Source of the DNA: Candidatus Hermodarchaeota archaeon
Lineage (GTDB): Archaea; Asgardarchaeota; Lokiarchaeia; Sigyniarchaeales; SOKP01
Assembly (NCBI GenBank): GCA_048885525.1
Contig: JBHLLP010000006.1
Coordinates: forward strand, 51,247 to 115,246
DNA: 64,000 nucleotides
Direction of reading: 5' to 3'
This document shows, piece by piece, positions 53,276 through 60,347 of this stretch (positions are counted from its first letter, which is position 1; the number at the start of each line of letters is the position of its first letter). Position numbers and translations under genes: made by a program. The notes beneath the pieces were generated by a model that saw only the letters and a program-made list of their open reading frames with translations, had not been told where the DNA came from and ran no database searches.

Positions 53276-55255
53276 ATGGTAGAAACTAAAGATGAAGCAG
53301 TTCAATATGATGAAGAAACACCTAGGATTGCTGTGTTCATTTGCCAATGAGGCTTAAACATCGCTGAAATTATTGATACTAAAGCTTTAGTAGAATTTTC
53401 GAAAACTCTTCCGAATGTTGTTAATGTACAAGATTACATTAGTCTTTGAACCGAACCAGGAGCAGAGTTTATTAAAGAAAAGATGATCGAGAGTAATGCC
53501 AATAGATTAGTTGTAGGATCATGCACTCCTAAAACACATGAACCTGTTTTTAAGAGCGTATTAGAATCAATGGGTATTGATTCGTCTTATCTGGAATTTG
53601 CTAATATCCGTGAACATTCTAGTTTTGTACATAAAAAAGATAAAGTAGGAGCACAAAAAGTTGCTGAAGATATTATCAGATCCGCTGTAGCTAGAGCATC
53701 TGTTTTAGAAAAAATATTAATTAAAGAAGTTGATATTACAAAAAAAGCTCTAATAATAGGCGGTGGAGTAGCTGGATTATCAGCAGGTATTGATCTCGCT
53801 GAAGAAGGGTTTGAAGTTCATCTGGTAGAAAAAAGCCCTACTATAGGAGGAAAAATGGCTAAACTGGATCGTACATTTCCTACAGATGATTGCAGTATAT
53901 GAATATTAGGGCCTGTTATGTTACAAGCAGCAAGAACTCCAATGCTTAATCTATACACATATAGCGAAGTTGAAGAAGTTTCTGGTTTTGTTGGGAATTT
54001 TACAATAAAAATAAGAAAAAAAGCTCGGTATGTAACTAATGATTGCAATGGATGTGGTGCATGCTTTGAGGTATGTCCCGCCTATGGGTATAATGAATTC
54101 AACGAGGGAATGGATTCAAGGAGAGCCATATATATATCCTTTGCTCAAGCAGTTCCTTCGTTAGCGCAAATAGATATGACTCGCTGTATCAAATGTGAAC
54201 TATGTATGGGTGCATGTGAAGTAGATGCAATTGATTTTGATCAAGAAGATGAAATCCTAGAATTAAAAGTAGGTTCAATTATAGTCGCAACTGGTTGGGA
54301 TGAGTATGAACCGCCGATGGGATATTTAGGATATAATAAATATCCGAATGTGATTACTCAACTCAAACTTGAAAGAATGTTAGCTCCGAATGGACCAACG
54401 GTAGGACATTTAGTAAGACCTTCTGATGGAAAAGAACCAAAGAAAATCTTATTTATTCAATGTGTAGGATCAAGAGATTTAAACATGAATACTTATTGTA
54501 GTTCTGGTGTATGTTGTATGATATCTATTAAAAATAGTAAATTGATTAAACAGCACTCTCCAGATGCAGATATTACTGTTGCGTACATGGATATGCGCGC
54601 TGCTGGGAAAGATTATGAAGAATATTTTACACTTTCACGGAAAGAGGGTATCAAGTATATAAGAACAAATGTAAGTAGAATAAAAGAAGATCCAACGACT
54701 CACAATCTAAAAATTGTTATGCAAAATACCTTAGGATCAAGTGGATTAAAGGAACTTGAATATGACTTGGTAATACTTTCCGCATCGATGGTTCCAGCTA
54801 AAAATGTTAATATTATTCAAAAGATGCTTAAACTGGAAAATAGCCAAGATGGATTTTTTAAAGAATTTCATGCTAGATTAAATCCGATCGATACAAAAAT
54901 TCCTGGAATTGTTCTAGCGGGAGTCAGTCAAGGTCCAAAATCTATCGTGGAATCAATAGCTCAAGGTAGAGCAGCAGCATCTTCTCTTGCTCGACTTATG
55001 ATTAAAGATAAATATCGGATCCTACTAATTCGTGCATCCGTTGATAAGGAACGATGTGCAAAATGTGGTTTATGCGAGTTAAATTGTCCCTATGATGCTA
55101 TAACTTTAATAGATAATGGTGCTGAAGTGAATGAGATATTATGTAGAGGCTGTGGAACTTGTTTGGCTAATTGCCCTTCAGAGGCTATAACTCTTAGATA
55201 TTATAGAGAACCTCAATATGAAAAACAAATAGATGCAATTTTGGAGGAATTTTAG
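53276..55255 (+). CDS. hdrA: Heterodisulfide reductase subunit A, selenoprotein with 3 Sec (659 aa)
   Basis: One frame from ATG 53276; TGA at 53348 (VFICQU-G), 53447 (SLU-TEPG) and 53900 (DDCSIU-IL), all at conserved Cys positions; GGGVAG FAD motif; ferredoxin motifs. Confidence 0.92.
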
Positions 55256-55919: not shown

Positions 55920-57218
55920 ATGGGGAAAGATATTGAAAAGCAGTTAATGAAAGCGGAACAACTTGATAAAGCAAGACAATTTAAACGAGCTGCAAAATTA
56001 TTTAATACACTTGGAAATAATTTCTTAAAATTGGGCGATTATGAACGTGCAAAAGAGTGTTTTTTTAATGCAGCTAAATGTGCTATAAATGAGGATAAAT
56101 ATTTAATTGGTTTAGAATTTTTAAGAAATGCTGGAAATGTGTCTCTAATAATGAATAATTTCCCAGAAGCATATCAATTCTTTATAAAAGCATTAAGTTA
56201 CGTCCCTAGTTTACGTAATTCTTCAGATCGTGATTTTCAATTTATTTTATTCTCAAGTTTATCTTATTTATGCTTATTTCTAGAAGGAAAACAAGAAGAA
56301 GGATTAAATATAGTAAAAAAAATTAAAAATTTTGTAGATGATACATACTTTAAAGAAAATCCCTTAATCAAGTTAATAAAAGATTTAACAGTTGCTACGA
56401 AAGACAAAAATGAGAAATATATAAATAAAGTAGAACTTAATTTTGAAAATCTCAAACTTCATGAAGGAGAAAGCCATCTGGTAAAATTGGTATTAGTTTT
56501 GGCAAAAACAATTGTTTCTTTAATAACCAAGTCAAGCTTTGACAAGAATGTTTATACTACTAATGATTTTATTAATCTAACAATAGATATTAATACTAAA
56601 CCTCTTTTAGATATTTCAAAGAATCCTTTTTATAATTATAATATAAACGAATTAAAAATTTCTAAAATTAATATAACTCTTTCCGATAATTTTACATCTC
56701 ACAAAAAACCAGAATTACCAATCATAATAACACCAGGGCAAAATTACCAATTACAACTATTAATTAAACCTCATTTTCAAATGGCAAACCCTTTTATTGG
56801 ACCTATTATATTAACCTCTGAATTAGATGAGAATCTAAGATTCTTTTATGAAATTCCTGAAACTTTTTATCCGAATCTAATATCTCCTCCTCCTACATTG
56901 GATATTTCAATCAAAAATCTACGACCTCCCCTCATTGGTCAATCATTTCCCTTAGAAATTCTTATAGAAAATAAAAGTGAAGGAGATGCCTTGGATCTTA
57001 ATATAGAAATTGATTTTCCTGAAAATCTAAAAGTAATGAGAGGTACATTGAAAAAACAAATTTATTCATTAAGATCAAATGAAAATATGAAATGGGAAAT
57101 TAACCTGAAACCGCTTGAAGCTGGAGAATACTTTATTAAAGTAAAAACGATGTTTAAGGATCCGGATCAGAATCAAATTGGTGAAATTAAAGATTTCCCA
57201 CTTTCAATAAAATTATAA
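55920..57218 (+). CDS. Hypothetical protein: N-terminal TPR/alpha-solenoid plus two C-terminal Ig-like domains
   Basis: Ala-rich helical repeats (AAKLF, AKECF.NAA); beta-rich C-terminus (LEILIENKSEG.A). Confidence 0.6.
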   Translation: MGKDIEKQLMKAEQLDKARQFKRAAKLFNTLGNNFLKLGDYERAKECFFNAAKCAINEDKYLIGLEFLRNAGNVSLIMNNFPEAYQFFIKALSYVPSLRNSSDRDFQFILFSSLSYLCLFLEGKQEEGLNIVKKIKNFVDDTYFKENPLIKLIKDLTVATKDKNEKYINKVELNFENLKLHEGESHLVKLVLVLAKTIVSLITKSSFDKNVYTTNDFINLTIDINTKPLLDISKNPFYNYNINELKISKINITLSDNFTSHKKPELPIIITPGQNYQLQLLIKPHFQMANPFIGPIILTSELDENLRFFYEIPETFYPNLISPPPTLDISIKNLRPPLIGQSFPLEILIENKSEGDALDLNIEIDFPENLKVMRGTLKKQIYSLRSNENMKWEINLKPLEAGEYFIKVKTMFKDPDQNQIGEIKDFPLSIKL

Positions 57219-57270: not shown

Positions 57271-58839
57271 ATGAAACTAAAAGTAAAGACAATTAATTTT
57301 GAAACAGGAAATACTAAAGACGTAGTTTTAAATGATAAAGATGCTCAAGAATTAGGACAAAAAGCCGGAGAGCGGATTTATATAAAAAATGTAAAATCCA
57401 ATAATCTTAGAGATAAGTATTGGGTTGCGATAATACAAATAGATTACTCAGGTACTTTTGTAAAGCAGGGTGAAATTGGTATTTTTTCAGACATTGTTCG
57501 AGAAAAAAAAGGTTTAAAAGATGATACGATCCTTTCAATAAAACCAGCAGATCCTCCCGATTCATTTAGATTTATACAAAAAAAAATAAAAGGACAAAAA
57601 CTATCGAGTGAGGAAATTAACAGCATTATCTCAGATGCTGTTTCTGGATCCCTCTCACGGATAGATTTAGCTGCATTCATAACTGCTGTATCCATTAACG
57701 GGATGGATAATGAGGAGATGACCGCGTTAACATTATCAGAAACAAGGAGTGGCGAGATATTTTATTTCGGAATGGATGTCTATGATAAACATAGCACAAA
57801 AATTTACTTTTCGTAAATTTTGTTAAAAGGTGGCGTCCCTGGGAATAAGGTATCTCTGATTATTGTCCCAATTGTTGCTGCTGCTGGTTTAACAATTCCA
57901 AAATCTTCGACGAGAGCTATAACATCTCCATCAGGCACAGCAGATTCAATGGAAGTATTAGCACCTGTTGCTTTTACTCCAGAAGAGTTAAATAATATTG
58001 TATCTAAAGAGAATGCTTGCATAATATGGGGTGGAGCCCTTGAAACAGCCCCAGCAGATAATATATTAATAGAAATTGAGCGACCTTTGCATATGGATCC
58101 AATTGGGCTTATGATACCTTCTATTCTTACAAAAAAGCTTTCATTAGGAGTTAAAAAGTTAGTACTTGATATTCCCGTAGGTGAAGGCACAAAATTTCCA
58201 ACAGTTGATAAAGGAAAACAGTTTGCTTATTTATTTAAAGAAATTGCTGCGAATATTGGAATTGAAGCGGAATGTGCGCTTACTTTAGCTCATCAACCTA
58301 TAGGACATGCTATAGGTCCCGCCTTGGAAGCTAAAGAAGCTCTTAATTTATTATGTGATTATTCTGCAGGGCCAAACTCTTTAATAGAGAAGTCTACGGA
58401 CCTAGCTGGTATTCTACTTGAAATGGGTGGGAAAGCCCGAAAAGGTTCGGGTCAAGCTATGGCGAAAAATATATTACGCTCTGGTAAAGCTTATGAAAAA
58501 ATGAAAACGATTATTAAAGCCCAAGGTGGTAATCCAGAAATAAAACCAGAAGATATTAAATTAGGTCCATATATTAAGGAATTTTTTGCATCTAAAGATG
58601 GATATATAGTTGAAGTAAACAATTCAATAATAAATCGAATTGCAAAAACTGCTGGATGCCCTAGGTCGAAGACTTCTGGCGTTGAAATAATAAAAAAGCA
58701 AGGTGCTAAAATAACTGAGGGAGAATTAGTATTTAGGGTGTATTCGCATAGTGAATCTAAATTAAGAAAAGCAGAAAAAATCTATAATTCTACGGGAGGT
58801 CCAATCCGTCTTGGTGGAATGATGATAGAAAGAGTTTAA
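57271..58839 (+). CDS. deoA: AMP phosphorylase (thymidine phosphorylase family), intron-containing: join(57271..57797,57828..58839), 512 aa
   Basis: The two track ORFs share a frame; motifs DKHST|GGVPGNK, KSSTRAITSPSGTAD, SILTKK, DIPVG.GTK, IGPALEA. Confidence 0.9.
57798..57827 (+). other. 30-nt BHB-type intron in a protein-coding gene
   Basis: UAGC/GUUA central helix, AC|A and AA|A bulges, perfect 9-bp inner stem AAAAUUUAC/GUAAAUUUU; contains in-frame TAA at 57814-57816. Confidence 0.85.
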
Positions 58840-58856: not shown

Positions 58857-60347
58857 ATGCCTTTAATTCCAAAAGCAATTTATGAGGATTTCAAGAATGG
58901 TGAATTAGATAAATCTCTTGCGATAGAATTATTAATAACTTTGATTGATAATTCAGAAAGCATTGAAACACGAATGGAAAGCATTAGAGTTTTAAAAGAG
59001 ATCCCATTGAATGATAATCAGACTTTTAAATTTTTAGAGCAATTGATGATTTCTGATTTAAATGAAAATGTAAGAAATTTAACGTGTAAAGTCCTAAAAA
59101 TTCACTATTCAGACAAAGTATTAGCTCCAATATCATGGATACTCGAACATGAAAGATCATTAAATTGTCTTGTAACAGGATTATCTACTCTAGCTGAAAT
59201 TAATACAGATGAGGCTAAGTCTATTCTTATAGATAAGTTGAATAGGCTGTATAATCAAGAACATAAATATAATTTAAAAGATATCTTTAAAAAAAGAGAA
59301 ATTGAGAGCTTTAATACTAAAGATCTTGCTGAGATCTTATTAAATTACTATATCATTTCATTTTTAAAATTTAAATATGGTTATATTAATTATGAAATTA
59401 CTAAAAATGGGTTTATTTCGAAATTAGATTTATCTAATGTTGATCCTCAAGGTATATCTTTGCCAAATTTTCTTGATTCTATTTTTTCGCTTAAAAGTTT
59501 AAAATTTTTTGACCTACGATTTAATCATTTAATAAAATTACCAGAAATTTCAAATGAATCAACTTCAGTACTATCTTTGGATTTAAGTTACAATCATTTA
59601 ATTAATTTAACAAAATCTATTGAAAAGGTGAAATCACTTCAAATCTTGAATTTAAAATCCAATAGATTAAGATTTGTTCCCGATACTTTAAGCAACCTAT
59701 TATCACTCCGGATTCTAAATCTAAGAAATAATATGCTAAAAAAGATTCCGAAATCAATTTCTACTCTTAAATCACTAAAAAGTTTGGATTTACATGGAAA
59801 TAAATTGACGTCAATTGATGTTAAATTTAATAGCTCAATTGAGGAGCTTGAATTAGGATGGAATAATTTTGAGAAAATCCCTTCTAATATTAAATATCTT
59901 ACTTCTTTAGAAAAATTAGGTATGAGTGGAAATAAAATAAAAAAATTGCCAAAATGGCTTTCCTCATTATATTCATTAAAAGAATTAGACTTATATGATA
60001 ATAATATTTTAAGCTTACCTGATTCGTTCGGGAACTTAAAATCATTAAGATCATTAATATTACGAAATAATCACCTTTCTACTTTACCTGAATCAATTGT
60101 AAATTTAAAAAATCTTAAGAAACTTAATTTAAGTTGGAATAATTTTACTCTTTTACCTGATTGGATTGGAGAACTTTCCTCATTAGAAGAATTAAATTTA
60201 TGGGGAAATAAACTTGAAACACTTCCCGAATCAATCGGTTGGCTATCAAATCTAAAGATTTTGGATATAAATTTCAATAGATTTGAACAAATACCACTCT
60301 TTTTGAAAGAGTTAGAAAGGAAAAAAGGACTTACTATAAAATTTTAA
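58857..60347 (+). CDS. Leucine-rich repeat protein with N-terminal HEAT-like repeats
   Basis: About 12 LxxLxLxxNxLxxLP repeats; helical N-terminus (DLNENVR). Confidence 0.88.
   Translation: MPLIPKAIYEDFKNGELDKSLAIELLITLIDNSESIETRMESIRVLKEIPLNDNQTFKFLEQLMISDLNENVRNLTCKVLKIHYSDKVLAPISWILEHERSLNCLVTGLSTLAEINTDEAKSILIDKLNRLYNQEHKYNLKDIFKKREIESFNTKDLAEILLNYYIISFLKFKYGYINYEITKNGFISKLDLSNVDPQGISLPNFLDSIFSLKSLKFFDLRFNHLIKLPEISNESTSVLSLDLSYNHLINLTKSIEKVKSLQILNLKSNRLRFVPDTLSNLLSLRILNLRNNMLKKIPKSISTLKSLKSLDLHGNKLTSIDVKFNSSIEELELGWNNFEKIPSNIKYLTSLEKLGMSGNKIKKLPKWLSSLYSLKELDLYDNNILSLPDSFGNLKSLRSLILRNNHLSTLPESIVNLKNLKKLNLSWNNFTLLPDWIGELSSLEELNLWGNKLETLPESIGWLSNLKILDINFNRFEQIPLFLKELERKKGLTIKF

What the first reader, a model, noticed from the sequence alone, without database searches (positions are those of the whole stretch)
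57774..57838. BHB intron inside an mRNA: AMP phosphorylase active-site motif interrupted by a 30-nt intron with a stop codon
Seen: the gene reads GAT AAA CAT AGC AC|A AAA ATT TAC TTT TCG TAA ATT TTG TTA AA|A GGT GGC GTC CCT GGG AAT AAG. The insert splits the family's DKHSTGG(VPGNK) phosphate-binding motif and carries an in-frame TAA. It folds as a bulge-helix-bulge: central helix UAGC(57792-95)/GUUA(57822-25), 3-nt bulges ACA(57796-98) and AAA(57826-28), and a perfect 9-bp inner stem (57799-807/57813-821) with a UUUUC loop. Exon-exon pairing is possible via GGAUGUC(57774-80)/GGCGUCC(57832-38), although the pair next to the 3' bulge is an A-G mismatch, so the motif is relaxed. Cutting after the second nucleotide of each bulge, the established rule for the archaeal splicing endonuclease EndA, removes exactly 30 nt and regenerates ACA-GGT (Thr-Gly) and an intact 512-aa ORF. 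Known: archaeal mRNA introns are rare, the classic case being crenarchaeal cbf5. Inference: this is EndA/RtcB-dependent mRNA splicing in an Asgard archaeon, which pipelines would miscall as a pseudogene. It could gate nucleotide catabolism post-transcriptionally and is conceptually reminiscent of non-spliceosomal HAC1/XBP1 splicing.
Basis: partly seen in the sequence, partly recalled or inferred. Interest (0 to 1): 0.97.

Follow-up and report, generated by a model that had tools for sequence, protein, structure and literature searches.

The report
tRNA-type mini-intron in Asgard AMP phosphorylase
The only AMP phosphorylase gene of this Asgard (Promethearchaeota) archaeon is interrupted, inside its phosphate-binding motif, by a 30-base insert shaped like an archaeal tRNA intron. 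Relatives keep it with compensating base changes, so the mRNA is very probably cut and rejoined by the tRNA-splicing enzymes, which the papers I could search confirm for only one archaeal coding gene (cbf5).

Summary
A 30-nt insert (57798-57827) with an in-frame TAA splits DKHST|GG of a 512-aa AMP phosphorylase.

It is not chance, a misassembly or gene decay:
- The same insert sits at the same site in 26 of 78 orthologous loci (21 distinct sequences). In those 21 the 4-bp central helix is paired in 100% of cells and the 9-bp inner stem in 97%. Seven pairs show changes on both sides.
- Both exons are under purifying selection (pN/pS 0.13-0.15).
- All spliced reading frames are open.
- Intronless relatives read exactly ACN-GGN at the predicted junction.
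- A more distant lineage carries a 29-nt version, which puts the exons in different frames.
- The genome encodes two EndA paralogues and RtcB.

The 3' cut site is relaxed: there is no helix directly next to the bulge. That is the substrate type reported for the (alpha-beta)2 EndA of Asgard and TACK archaea.

No RNA data were available, so excision itself is inferred. A regulatory "gate" has no evidence.

I checked three further mini-introns in this genome (RNase HII, a JAMM gene, a LOR-like gene). This scan has already noted such introns, including this one, on other DNA.

The parts
57271..57797 (+). Exon 1 of AMP phosphorylase (Met1 to the first two bases of Thr176)
   Evidence: ORF list. Pfam Glycos_trans_3N. 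TIGR03327 profile positions 1-165.
57774..57783 (+). 5' strand of a distal exon-exon helix (pairs with 57830-57838)
   Evidence: Minimum-energy fold. 95% of cells are paired in intron-bearing orthologues against 75% in intronless ones. No change on both sides was seen, so support is weak.
57792..57795 (+). Central helix H, exonic strand UAGC (His-Ser codons)
   Evidence: 100% paired in 21 sequences. U-A changes to C-G in 6 of them, through a synonymous CAU-to-CAC change matched by an intron change.
57796..57798 (+). 5' bulge ACA; predicted cut between 57797 and 57798
   Evidence: Sequence. The rule 'between the second and third residues in the bulges' is stated in PMC2738675.
57798..57827 (+). 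30-nt intron
   Evidence: Absent, to the base, from 52 of 78 orthologous loci and present in 26. Intronless contigs in the same samples join at 57828 (loose ends).
57799..57821 (+). Intron hairpin h': 9-bp stem 57799-807/57813-821 and loop 57808-12
   Evidence: 97.4% of cells paired; 5 of 9 pairs show changes on both sides.
57814..57816 (+). In-frame stop codon inside the intron
   Evidence: This codon is a stop in all 21 variants: TAA 16, TAG 4, TGA 1.
57822..57825 (+). Central helix H, intronic strand GUUA
57826..57828 (+). 3' bulge AAA; predicted cut between 57827 and 57828. Base 57828 becomes the wobble base of Thr176.
   Evidence: The third bulge base varies (A, U, C) while the joined codon stays ACN = Thr.
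57828..58839 (+). Exon 2 of AMP phosphorylase (last base of Thr176, Gly177 to the stop codon)
   Evidence: Pfam Glycos_transf_3 and PYNP_C. TIGR03327 profile positions 167-500.
57830..57838 (+). 3' strand of the distal exon-exon helix

Best explanation
This is a bulge-helix-bulge (tRNA-type) intron in the coding sequence of the genome's single AMP phosphorylase gene. The pre-mRNA folds locally. The exonic UAGC pairs with the intronic GUUA to form the 4-bp central helix. A 3-nt bulge (ACA) and a 9-bp intron hairpin follow on the 5' side. On the 3' side a 3-nt bulge (AAA) lies in a loop closed only by a more distant exon-exon helix, so the motif is the relaxed HBh' type. The heterotetrameric splicing endonuclease (two EndA paralogues are encoded) cuts after the second base of each bulge, and RtcB joins the exons. 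This gives ...CAU AGC ACA GGU..., that is DKHSTGG, and a 512-aa enzyme. Unspliced mRNA ends translation at the conserved stop inside the intron and gives a 181-aa fragment without the catalytic domain. Shown here: the structure, its conservation by covariation, selection on both exons, the exact junction in intronless relatives, and the presence of the enzymes. Inferred: the cleavage and ligation themselves.
For: The insert is at the same site in 26 of 78 orthologous loci, always 30 nt, and 29 nt in two more distant lineages. In 21 distinct sequences helix H is 100% paired and stem h' 97.4% paired. Seven pairs show changes on both sides, none of 500 shuffles reached the observed values, and slid controls pair at 35-55%. 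All 61 distinct spliced coding sequences are open at 509-512 aa counted from the conserved MKLKVK start. Among intron-bearing genes pN/pS is 0.152 for exon 1 and 0.132 for exon 2, at pS of 0.6-0.7, no higher than in intronless genes. The exons abut on the TIGR03327 profile (1-165 and 167-500); their scores add to 562 bits against a cut-off of 535. The genome has a single copy of the gene, while RuBisCO and an adjacent e2b2-family gene are intact. Two EndA paralogues and RtcB are present. Asgard EndA is reported as (alpha-beta)2 with the L1 loop that allows relaxed motifs (PMC5829648). On the gene tree the intron lies within one clade of 45 rows (21 with, 24 without). Well-supported branches force at least 8 changes, and every intronless gene reads ACN-GGN exactly. 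The insert stands in independent Logan contigs. Three further mini-introns of the same build in this genome restore DEAGRG of RNase HII, HxHx7SxxD of a JAMM gene, and a LOR domain.
Against: No RNA evidence: no RNA run was listed. No full-length protein in the public collection is more than 94% identical to a spliced translation. The outer helix next to the 3' bulge is missing (A.G mismatch), so the motif is not the strict hBHBh'. The single-sequence fold is only marginally better than shuffles. An in-frame TTG (GTG in the 29-nt forms) lies in the 3' part of every insert, so separate translation of exon 2 cannot be excluded by sequence alone.
Confidence: 0.9

Rival explanations
1. Split gene: the insert is not removed. 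Exon 1 is translated to the TAA, exon 2 starts independently at the TTG inside the insert, and the two polypeptides assemble into an active enzyme.
For: An in-frame TTG or GTG is present in all variants. Gene callers produce 339-341-aa products. The break lies near the border between the Pfam N-terminal helical domain and the alpha/beta domain.
Against: The break falls inside the phosphate-binding DKHSTGG motif and would add foreign residues on both sides. This reading does not explain covariation of an exon-intron helix, the fixed 3-nt bulges or the intron hairpin. It does not explain repeated loss of exactly these bases. No Shine-Dalgarno-like sequence precedes the TTG.
Confidence: 0.05
2. 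Inactivated gene (pseudogene), or a neutral hairpin insertion tolerated because the pathway is dispensable.
For: A stop codon interrupts the frame. NCBI annotation gives 'hypothetical protein' for the fragment.
Against: 21 distinct intron-bearing lineages at near-saturated synonymous divergence have no further stop or frameshift, and pN/pS is 0.13-0.15 in both exons. The insert itself is under structural selection.
Confidence: 0.02
3. Translational recoding: ribosomes bypass the insert, as in phage T4 gene 60 hopping.
For: A hairpin and a stop codon follow shortly after the break. In the window an AAA codon follows Thr and another AAA precedes GGT.
Against: Matching take-off and landing codons are not conserved: GAA with AUU in L011, GAA with ACU in L048. 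The 29-nt variants change frame. A hop from AAA to AAA would add a Lys inside the motif. This reading does not explain the exon-intron helix covariation.
Confidence: 0.02
4. Assembly artefact.
For: None found.
Against: The insert is present in 26 independently assembled loci and in Logan contigs of two studies with no differences.
Confidence: 0.005

Closest known systems
BHB intron of the cbf5 (pseudouridine synthase) pre-mRNA of Crenarchaeota (Watanabe 2002; Yoshinari 2006; Yokobori 2009 = PMC2738675)
   Same: A short intron inside a coding sequence that interrupts a catalytic-site codon or motif. Mostly unconventional (relaxed) BHB motifs, cut between the second and third bulge residues by a hetero-oligomeric endonuclease. 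Patchy distribution explained by one gain and secondary losses.
   Different: A different gene (metabolic, AMP phosphorylase), a different phylum (Asgard/Promethearchaeota), and no experimental splicing evidence yet. Here it is one of several mini-introns in the same genome, whereas PMC2738675 states that no archaeal pre-mRNA splicing had been confirmed for genes other than cbf5.
Archaeal pre-tRNA introns with relaxed HBh' motifs, cleaved by (alpha-beta)2 EndA carrying the L1 loop (PMC5829648)
   Same: The same geometry of central helix, 3-nt bulges and intron helix. The same predicted enzymes. A similar length to many tRNA introns. Asgard tRNA genes are heavily interrupted (preprint 10.64898/2026.10.13.758758; ARAGORN reports introns in 21 of 34 tRNAs here).
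   Different: The host RNA is an mRNA with no tRNA body. Splicing has to coexist with translation of the same RNA.
BHB intron in the 5' UTR of Haloferax volcanii HVO_1309 (PMC7714728)
   Same: EndA processing of an mRNA, shown in vivo and in vitro.
   Different: That intron lies in an untranslated region and does not interrupt a reading frame.
HAC1/XBP1 unconventional splicing (Ire1 with RtcB or Trl1)
   Same: Non-spliceosomal removal of a small mRNA segment, followed by RtcB-type ligation. The unspliced form gives a different product.
   Different: The nuclease differs (Ire1 KEN domain; none found here, though the control genomes were uninformative). The RNA motif differs (two 7-nt loops). 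Nothing here shows stress regulation. This is an analogy only.

Membership tests
Archaeal bulge-helix-bulge (EndA-type) intron | 4-bp central helix flanked by two 3-nt bulges on opposite strands | tested here: met
   the helix is 100% paired in 21 sequences and both bulges are 3 nt in all of them. The 29-nt variants have a 4-nt 5' bulge.
Archaeal bulge-helix-bulge (EndA-type) intron | Intron-side helix h' next to the 5' bulge | tested here: met
   9-bp stem, 97.4% paired, 5 pairs with changes on both sides.
Archaeal bulge-helix-bulge (EndA-type) intron | Exon-exon helix h directly next to the 3' bulge (strict hBHBh') | tested here: not met
   A.G mismatch at 57791/57829 and an 8-nt loop on the 5' strand. 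Only a distal helix exists. The motif is therefore the relaxed HBh' form described in PMC5829648, not the strict form.
Archaeal bulge-helix-bulge (EndA-type) intron | Cutting after the second base of each bulge gives a functional junction | tested here: met
   It gives ACN-GGN = Thr-Gly in all 21 variants plus the two 29-nt variants, identical to intronless orthologues. Cutting after the third base would fit equally well. Cutting after the first base would not.
Archaeal bulge-helix-bulge (EndA-type) intron | Host encodes the splicing endonuclease and an RtcB ligase | tested here: met
   Two PF01974 matches, in open frames of 205 and 212 aa, and one RtcB at 571 bits.
Archaeal bulge-helix-bulge (EndA-type) intron | Excision and exon ligation seen in RNA | not testable with these tools
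   No RNA run was listed for this stretch.
AMP phosphorylase (NCBIfam TIGR03327, equivalog) | Full-length match above the curated cut-off | tested here: inconclusive
   The exons were scored separately: 114.3 bits (profile 1-165) and 447.6 bits (profile 167-500). The simple sum of 562 exceeds the cut-off of 535, but the joined protein was not scored.
AMP phosphorylase (NCBIfam TIGR03327, equivalog) | Pathway partners present (form III RuBisCO, ribose-1,5-bisphosphate isomerase) | tested here: met
   A RuBisCO large subunit (311 bits) lies next to an e2b2-family gene on contig C19. The latter scores 228 bits, below its equivalog cut-off of 314.
HAC1/XBP1-type Ire1 splicing | Ire1 KEN-domain nuclease in the host | tested here: inconclusive
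   No PF06479 match in the genome (99% complete), but no control genome matched either.

The most novel reading that the evidence does not exclude
The insert may belong to a family of related, propagating mini-introns. The RNase HII intron of the same genome shares 25 of 39 core positions with the AMP phosphorylase intron consensus, including the loop AUUUC and the 3' end GUUAAAAGG. That ranks joint second, with two other 39-mers behind the AMP intron itself, among 4866 structure-matched 39-mers of the genome. Both introns sit at U-R-R-Y-N-N|N-GG sites. On this reading such introns spread to new mRNA sites that can supply the exonic half of the helix, and are lost exactly through the spliced RNA (at least 8 exact losses in this gene). 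Asgard archaea would then have a live gain-and-loss cycle of mRNA introns. The stop codon kept in every variant would be a safeguard against translating unspliced message.
Probability: 0.2. Interest if true: 0.85.

Novelty: new member of a known kind. Interest (0 to 1): 0.65.

Why it matters
In the papers I could search, splicing of an archaeal coding sequence by the tRNA-splicing enzymes is confirmed for one gene family only: cbf5 in Crenarchaeota (PMC2738675; PMC7714728 says the same in 2020). This case puts the same mechanism in the archaeal group closest to eukaryotes, in a core metabolic gene, with strong comparative support and a record of repeated exact loss. In practice, annotation pipelines split the gene and name the larger piece 'hypothetical protein', so pathway reconstructions for these MAGs under-call the pentose bisphosphate pathway. 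About 44 of the 120 best public protein clusters for this enzyme are such fragments. Together with the other mini-introns in this genome, it gives a tractable substrate for asking how splicing and translation coexist in a cell without a nucleus.

Tried and rejected
1. RNA evidence: the look-up of sequencing runs listed no RNA holder, so expression and splicing could not be examined.
2. Spliced products in the protein collection: the closest full-length protein is 94% identical to any spliced translation I hold and 90-91% identical to this genome's. No cDNA-derived copy was recognised.
3. De novo census of BHB introns in the genome. The scan asked for a 4-bp helix, a 3-nt bulge and a stem of at least 4 bp that joins two open frames, with decoy bulge lengths of 0-6 as controls. 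The true geometry gave 541 candidates against 469-516 for the decoys. Filters on codon usage and on nearby start codons did not separate them. Ordinary gene boundaries dominate the candidates. False positives I inspected include the porA/porB boundary, a corrinoid-protein/methyltransferase boundary, uS13 and a Sec codon in an HdrA-like gene. No count of introns per genome can be given.
4. A covariance model of the core (R1) found only its three training sites in the genome, and only 150 of about 10,800 candidates were scored.
5. Rfam: no family matches 57500-58100 at E <= 1.
6. Reverse transcriptase (PF00078): none found in this 99%-complete genome. This says nothing about how relatives lost the intron.
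7. Ire1 KEN domain: none found, and the control was uninformative.
8. The reading that the stretch is a repeated hairpin element: the 23-nt hairpin occurs once in the window even with 3 mismatches allowed.

Full report
**Observation.** Two ORFs in the same frame, 57271-57816 (181 aa) and 57820-58839 (339 aa), flank a 30-nt insert. The first carries Pfam Glycos_trans_3N. The second carries Glycos_transf_3 and PYNP_C. Against NCBIfam, exon 1 covers positions 1-165 and exon 2 positions 167-500 of the AMP phosphorylase equivalog TIGR03327. They score 114.3 and 447.6 bits against a cut-off of 535. Every stated pairing checks: UAGC/GUUA, bulges ACA and AAA, the perfect 9-bp stem with loop UUUUC, TAA at 57814-16, and the 7-bp exon-exon pairing with an A.G mismatch next to the 3' bulge. 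Removing 57798-57827 gives AGC-ACA-GGT and a 512-aa frame.

On its own the fold is not impressive: -17.2 kcal/mol, z = -1.67. The minimum-energy structure uses a register shifted by one base. It also shows an 8-nt loop on the 5' strand opposite the 3' bulge, so the motif is not the strict hBHBh'.

**Comparative evidence.** The window lies on contig C6 of a 3.58-Mb genome that is 99% complete. Its relatives are Promethearchaeota (Asgard) MAGs. Among 24 other species genomes of the genus searched, six have the frame broken at the same place and most of the others are intact. Across 78 loci, 26 carry an insert of exactly 30 nt at exactly this site and 52 read ACN-GGN there.

The 21 distinct intron-bearing sequences were aligned without gaps (A2).
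- The central helix is paired in 100% of cells. U-A is replaced by C-G in six sequences, through a synonymous CAU-to-CAC change in the exon matched by A-to-G in the intron.
- The inner stem is paired in 97.4% of cells, and five of its nine pairs change on both sides.
- None of 500 shuffles reached the observed values.
- Sliding the partners by 1-3 columns drops pairing to 35-55%.
- The distal exon-exon helix is 95% paired in intron-bearing genes and 75% in intronless ones. It shows no change on both sides, so I treat it as weakly supported.

Two more distant lineages (78-79% protein identity) carry a 29-nt version with a 4-nt 5' bulge. It puts the two exons in different frames, and the same cut rule still gives ACU-GGU. 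The insert is therefore not constrained to a multiple of three.

**The gene is alive.** All 61 distinct spliced coding sequences are open, at 509-512 aa counted from the conserved MKLKVK start. Among intron-bearing genes pN/pS is 0.152 in exon 1 and 0.132 in exon 2, at pS of 0.61-0.68. This is no higher than among intronless genes, which give 0.203 and 0.147. The genome has only this copy. It keeps a RuBisCO large subunit next to an e2b2-family gene, the likely partners in the pentose bisphosphate pathway.

**History.** On a maximum-likelihood tree of the spliced genes the intron is confined to one clade of 45 rows (SH-aLRT 99), with 21 bearing it and 24 lacking it. Well-supported branches force at least 8 changes. 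The inserts are homologous in site and sequence. The simplest reading is therefore one gain followed by many losses or allele replacements, each exact to the base at the predicted junction. This is the pattern PMC2738675 describes for cbf5, with loss via the spliced RNA as one proposed route.

**Machinery.** The genome has two PF01974 endonuclease paralogues and RtcB. [quoted passage not shown] PMC2738675 states that the cut lies between the second and third bulge residues, and that most cbf5 introns have unconventional motifs. ARAGORN finds only 34 tRNAs here and reports introns in 21 of them. That fits the heavy tRNA interruption described for some Asgard families (preprint 10.64898/2026.10.13.758758). 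That preprint does not mention mRNA.

**Mechanism.** I conclude, at about 0.9, that the insert is an intron removed from the mRNA by EndA and RtcB.
- Shown: the structure, its selection, the exact junction, the live gene and the presence of the enzymes.
- Inferred: cleavage and ligation themselves.

One detail not in the finding: the seventh in-frame codon counted from Thr176 is a stop in all 21 variants (TAA 16, TAG 4, TGA 1). This would end translation of unspliced message. The changes also preserve pairing, so selection for the stop itself is only a suggestion. Nothing supports regulated splicing.

**Rivals.**
- Split gene translated from the TTG inside the insert. It is not excluded by sequence, but it explains neither the exon-intron covariation nor the exact losses, and it would cut the phosphate-binding loop.
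- Pseudogene. Contradicted.
- Ribosomal bypass. There are no conserved take-off and landing codons, and the 29-nt forms change frame.
- Misassembly. Excluded by 26 independent loci and by Logan contigs of two studies. In the same samples, intronless relatives align from 57828 onward with ...CACAGTAC immediately before (loose ends).

**Context in the genome.** Earlier notes of this scan pointed to other such inserts in this genome. I checked three:
- RNase HII, C4:36149-36178, 30 nt with a TAA. Excision restores DEAGRG. The Pfam match runs through the stop, and exon 2 starts at profile position 9.
- A JAMM gene, C7:62562-62592, 31 nt. Excision restores HxHx7SxxD. The exon 1 match to JAB is cut off at the exon end.
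- A LOR-like gene, C7:103980-104009 on the minus strand, 30 nt, with a 9-bp stem and 5-nt loop. Exon 2 starts at LOR profile position 32.

The RNase HII intron shares 25 of 39 core positions with the AMP phosphorylase consensus. That ties it for second with two non-genic 39-mers, behind the AMP phosphorylase intron itself, among 4866 structure-matched 39-mers. This is a hint of relatedness, not more. My own genome-wide scan could not separate introns from ordinary gene boundaries.

**Literature and earlier scan notes.** Four searches found no paper reporting BHB introns in Asgard coding genes. PMC7714728 (2020) names cbf5 as the one mRNA case and adds a 5' UTR intron in Haloferax. Within this scan the phenomenon has been noted often: 835 notes in at least 122 genomes. 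This same AMP phosphorylase intron was noted in other genomes, and other agents report spliced environmental RNA for other genes. I did not check those reports and do not count them as support.

**Verdict.** This is a real and well-supported new member of a known kind (BHB intron in an mRNA), in a new phylum and a new gene. Excision in RNA has not yet been observed.

Noticed in passing
window 53450-55252 (+), TGA at 53900-53902: An HdrA-like gene reads ...LDRTFPTDDCSI-TGA-ILGPVMLQAARTPMLNLYTYSEV. The in-frame TGA stands where, from memory, HdrA relatives have the second Cys of DCSMCIL, so this is probably a selenocysteine codon. My intron scan first flagged it as a false positive.
   Followed up: partly
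G000 C4:36149-36178 (L086:1524-1553): A 30-nt BHB mini-intron with a TAA lies in RNase HII, inside DEAGRG. Its loop AUUUC and 3' end GUUAAAAGG are the same as in the AMP phosphorylase intron consensus.
   Followed up: yes
G000 C7:62562-62592 (L087:1063-1093): A 31-nt BHB mini-intron lies in a JAMM/MPN gene. Excision restores the HxHx7SxxD metal site. Its hairpin is richer in G+C than the surroundings.
   Followed up: yes
G000 C7:103980-104009, minus strand (L088:981-1010): A 30-nt BHB mini-intron (9-bp stem, 5-nt loop) lies in a gene with a zinc ribbon followed by a LURP-one-related/scramblase-like domain.
   Followed up: yes
L022/L055 (G014 contig end); Logan contigs of X1 ending at window 57798: One relative's contig ends seven codons after the intron site. 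Three Logan contigs (X1 records 1-3) end at or within four bases of the 5' cut site, while another contig spans it. This is as expected if sequences with and without the intron co-occur in a sample and break the assembly graph there.
   Followed up: no
window 55920-57218 and 58857-60347: The gene is flanked by a TPR protein with a beta-rich C-terminal part and by a HEAT plus leucine-rich-repeat protein. Earlier notes of this scan describe the same neighbours in related genomes.
   Followed up: no
G000 whole genome: ARAGORN finds only 34 tRNA genes in a 99%-complete genome and reports introns in 21 of them, several at odd positions or of odd lengths. This suggests many non-canonical tRNA introns that the program cannot model.
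   Followed up: partly
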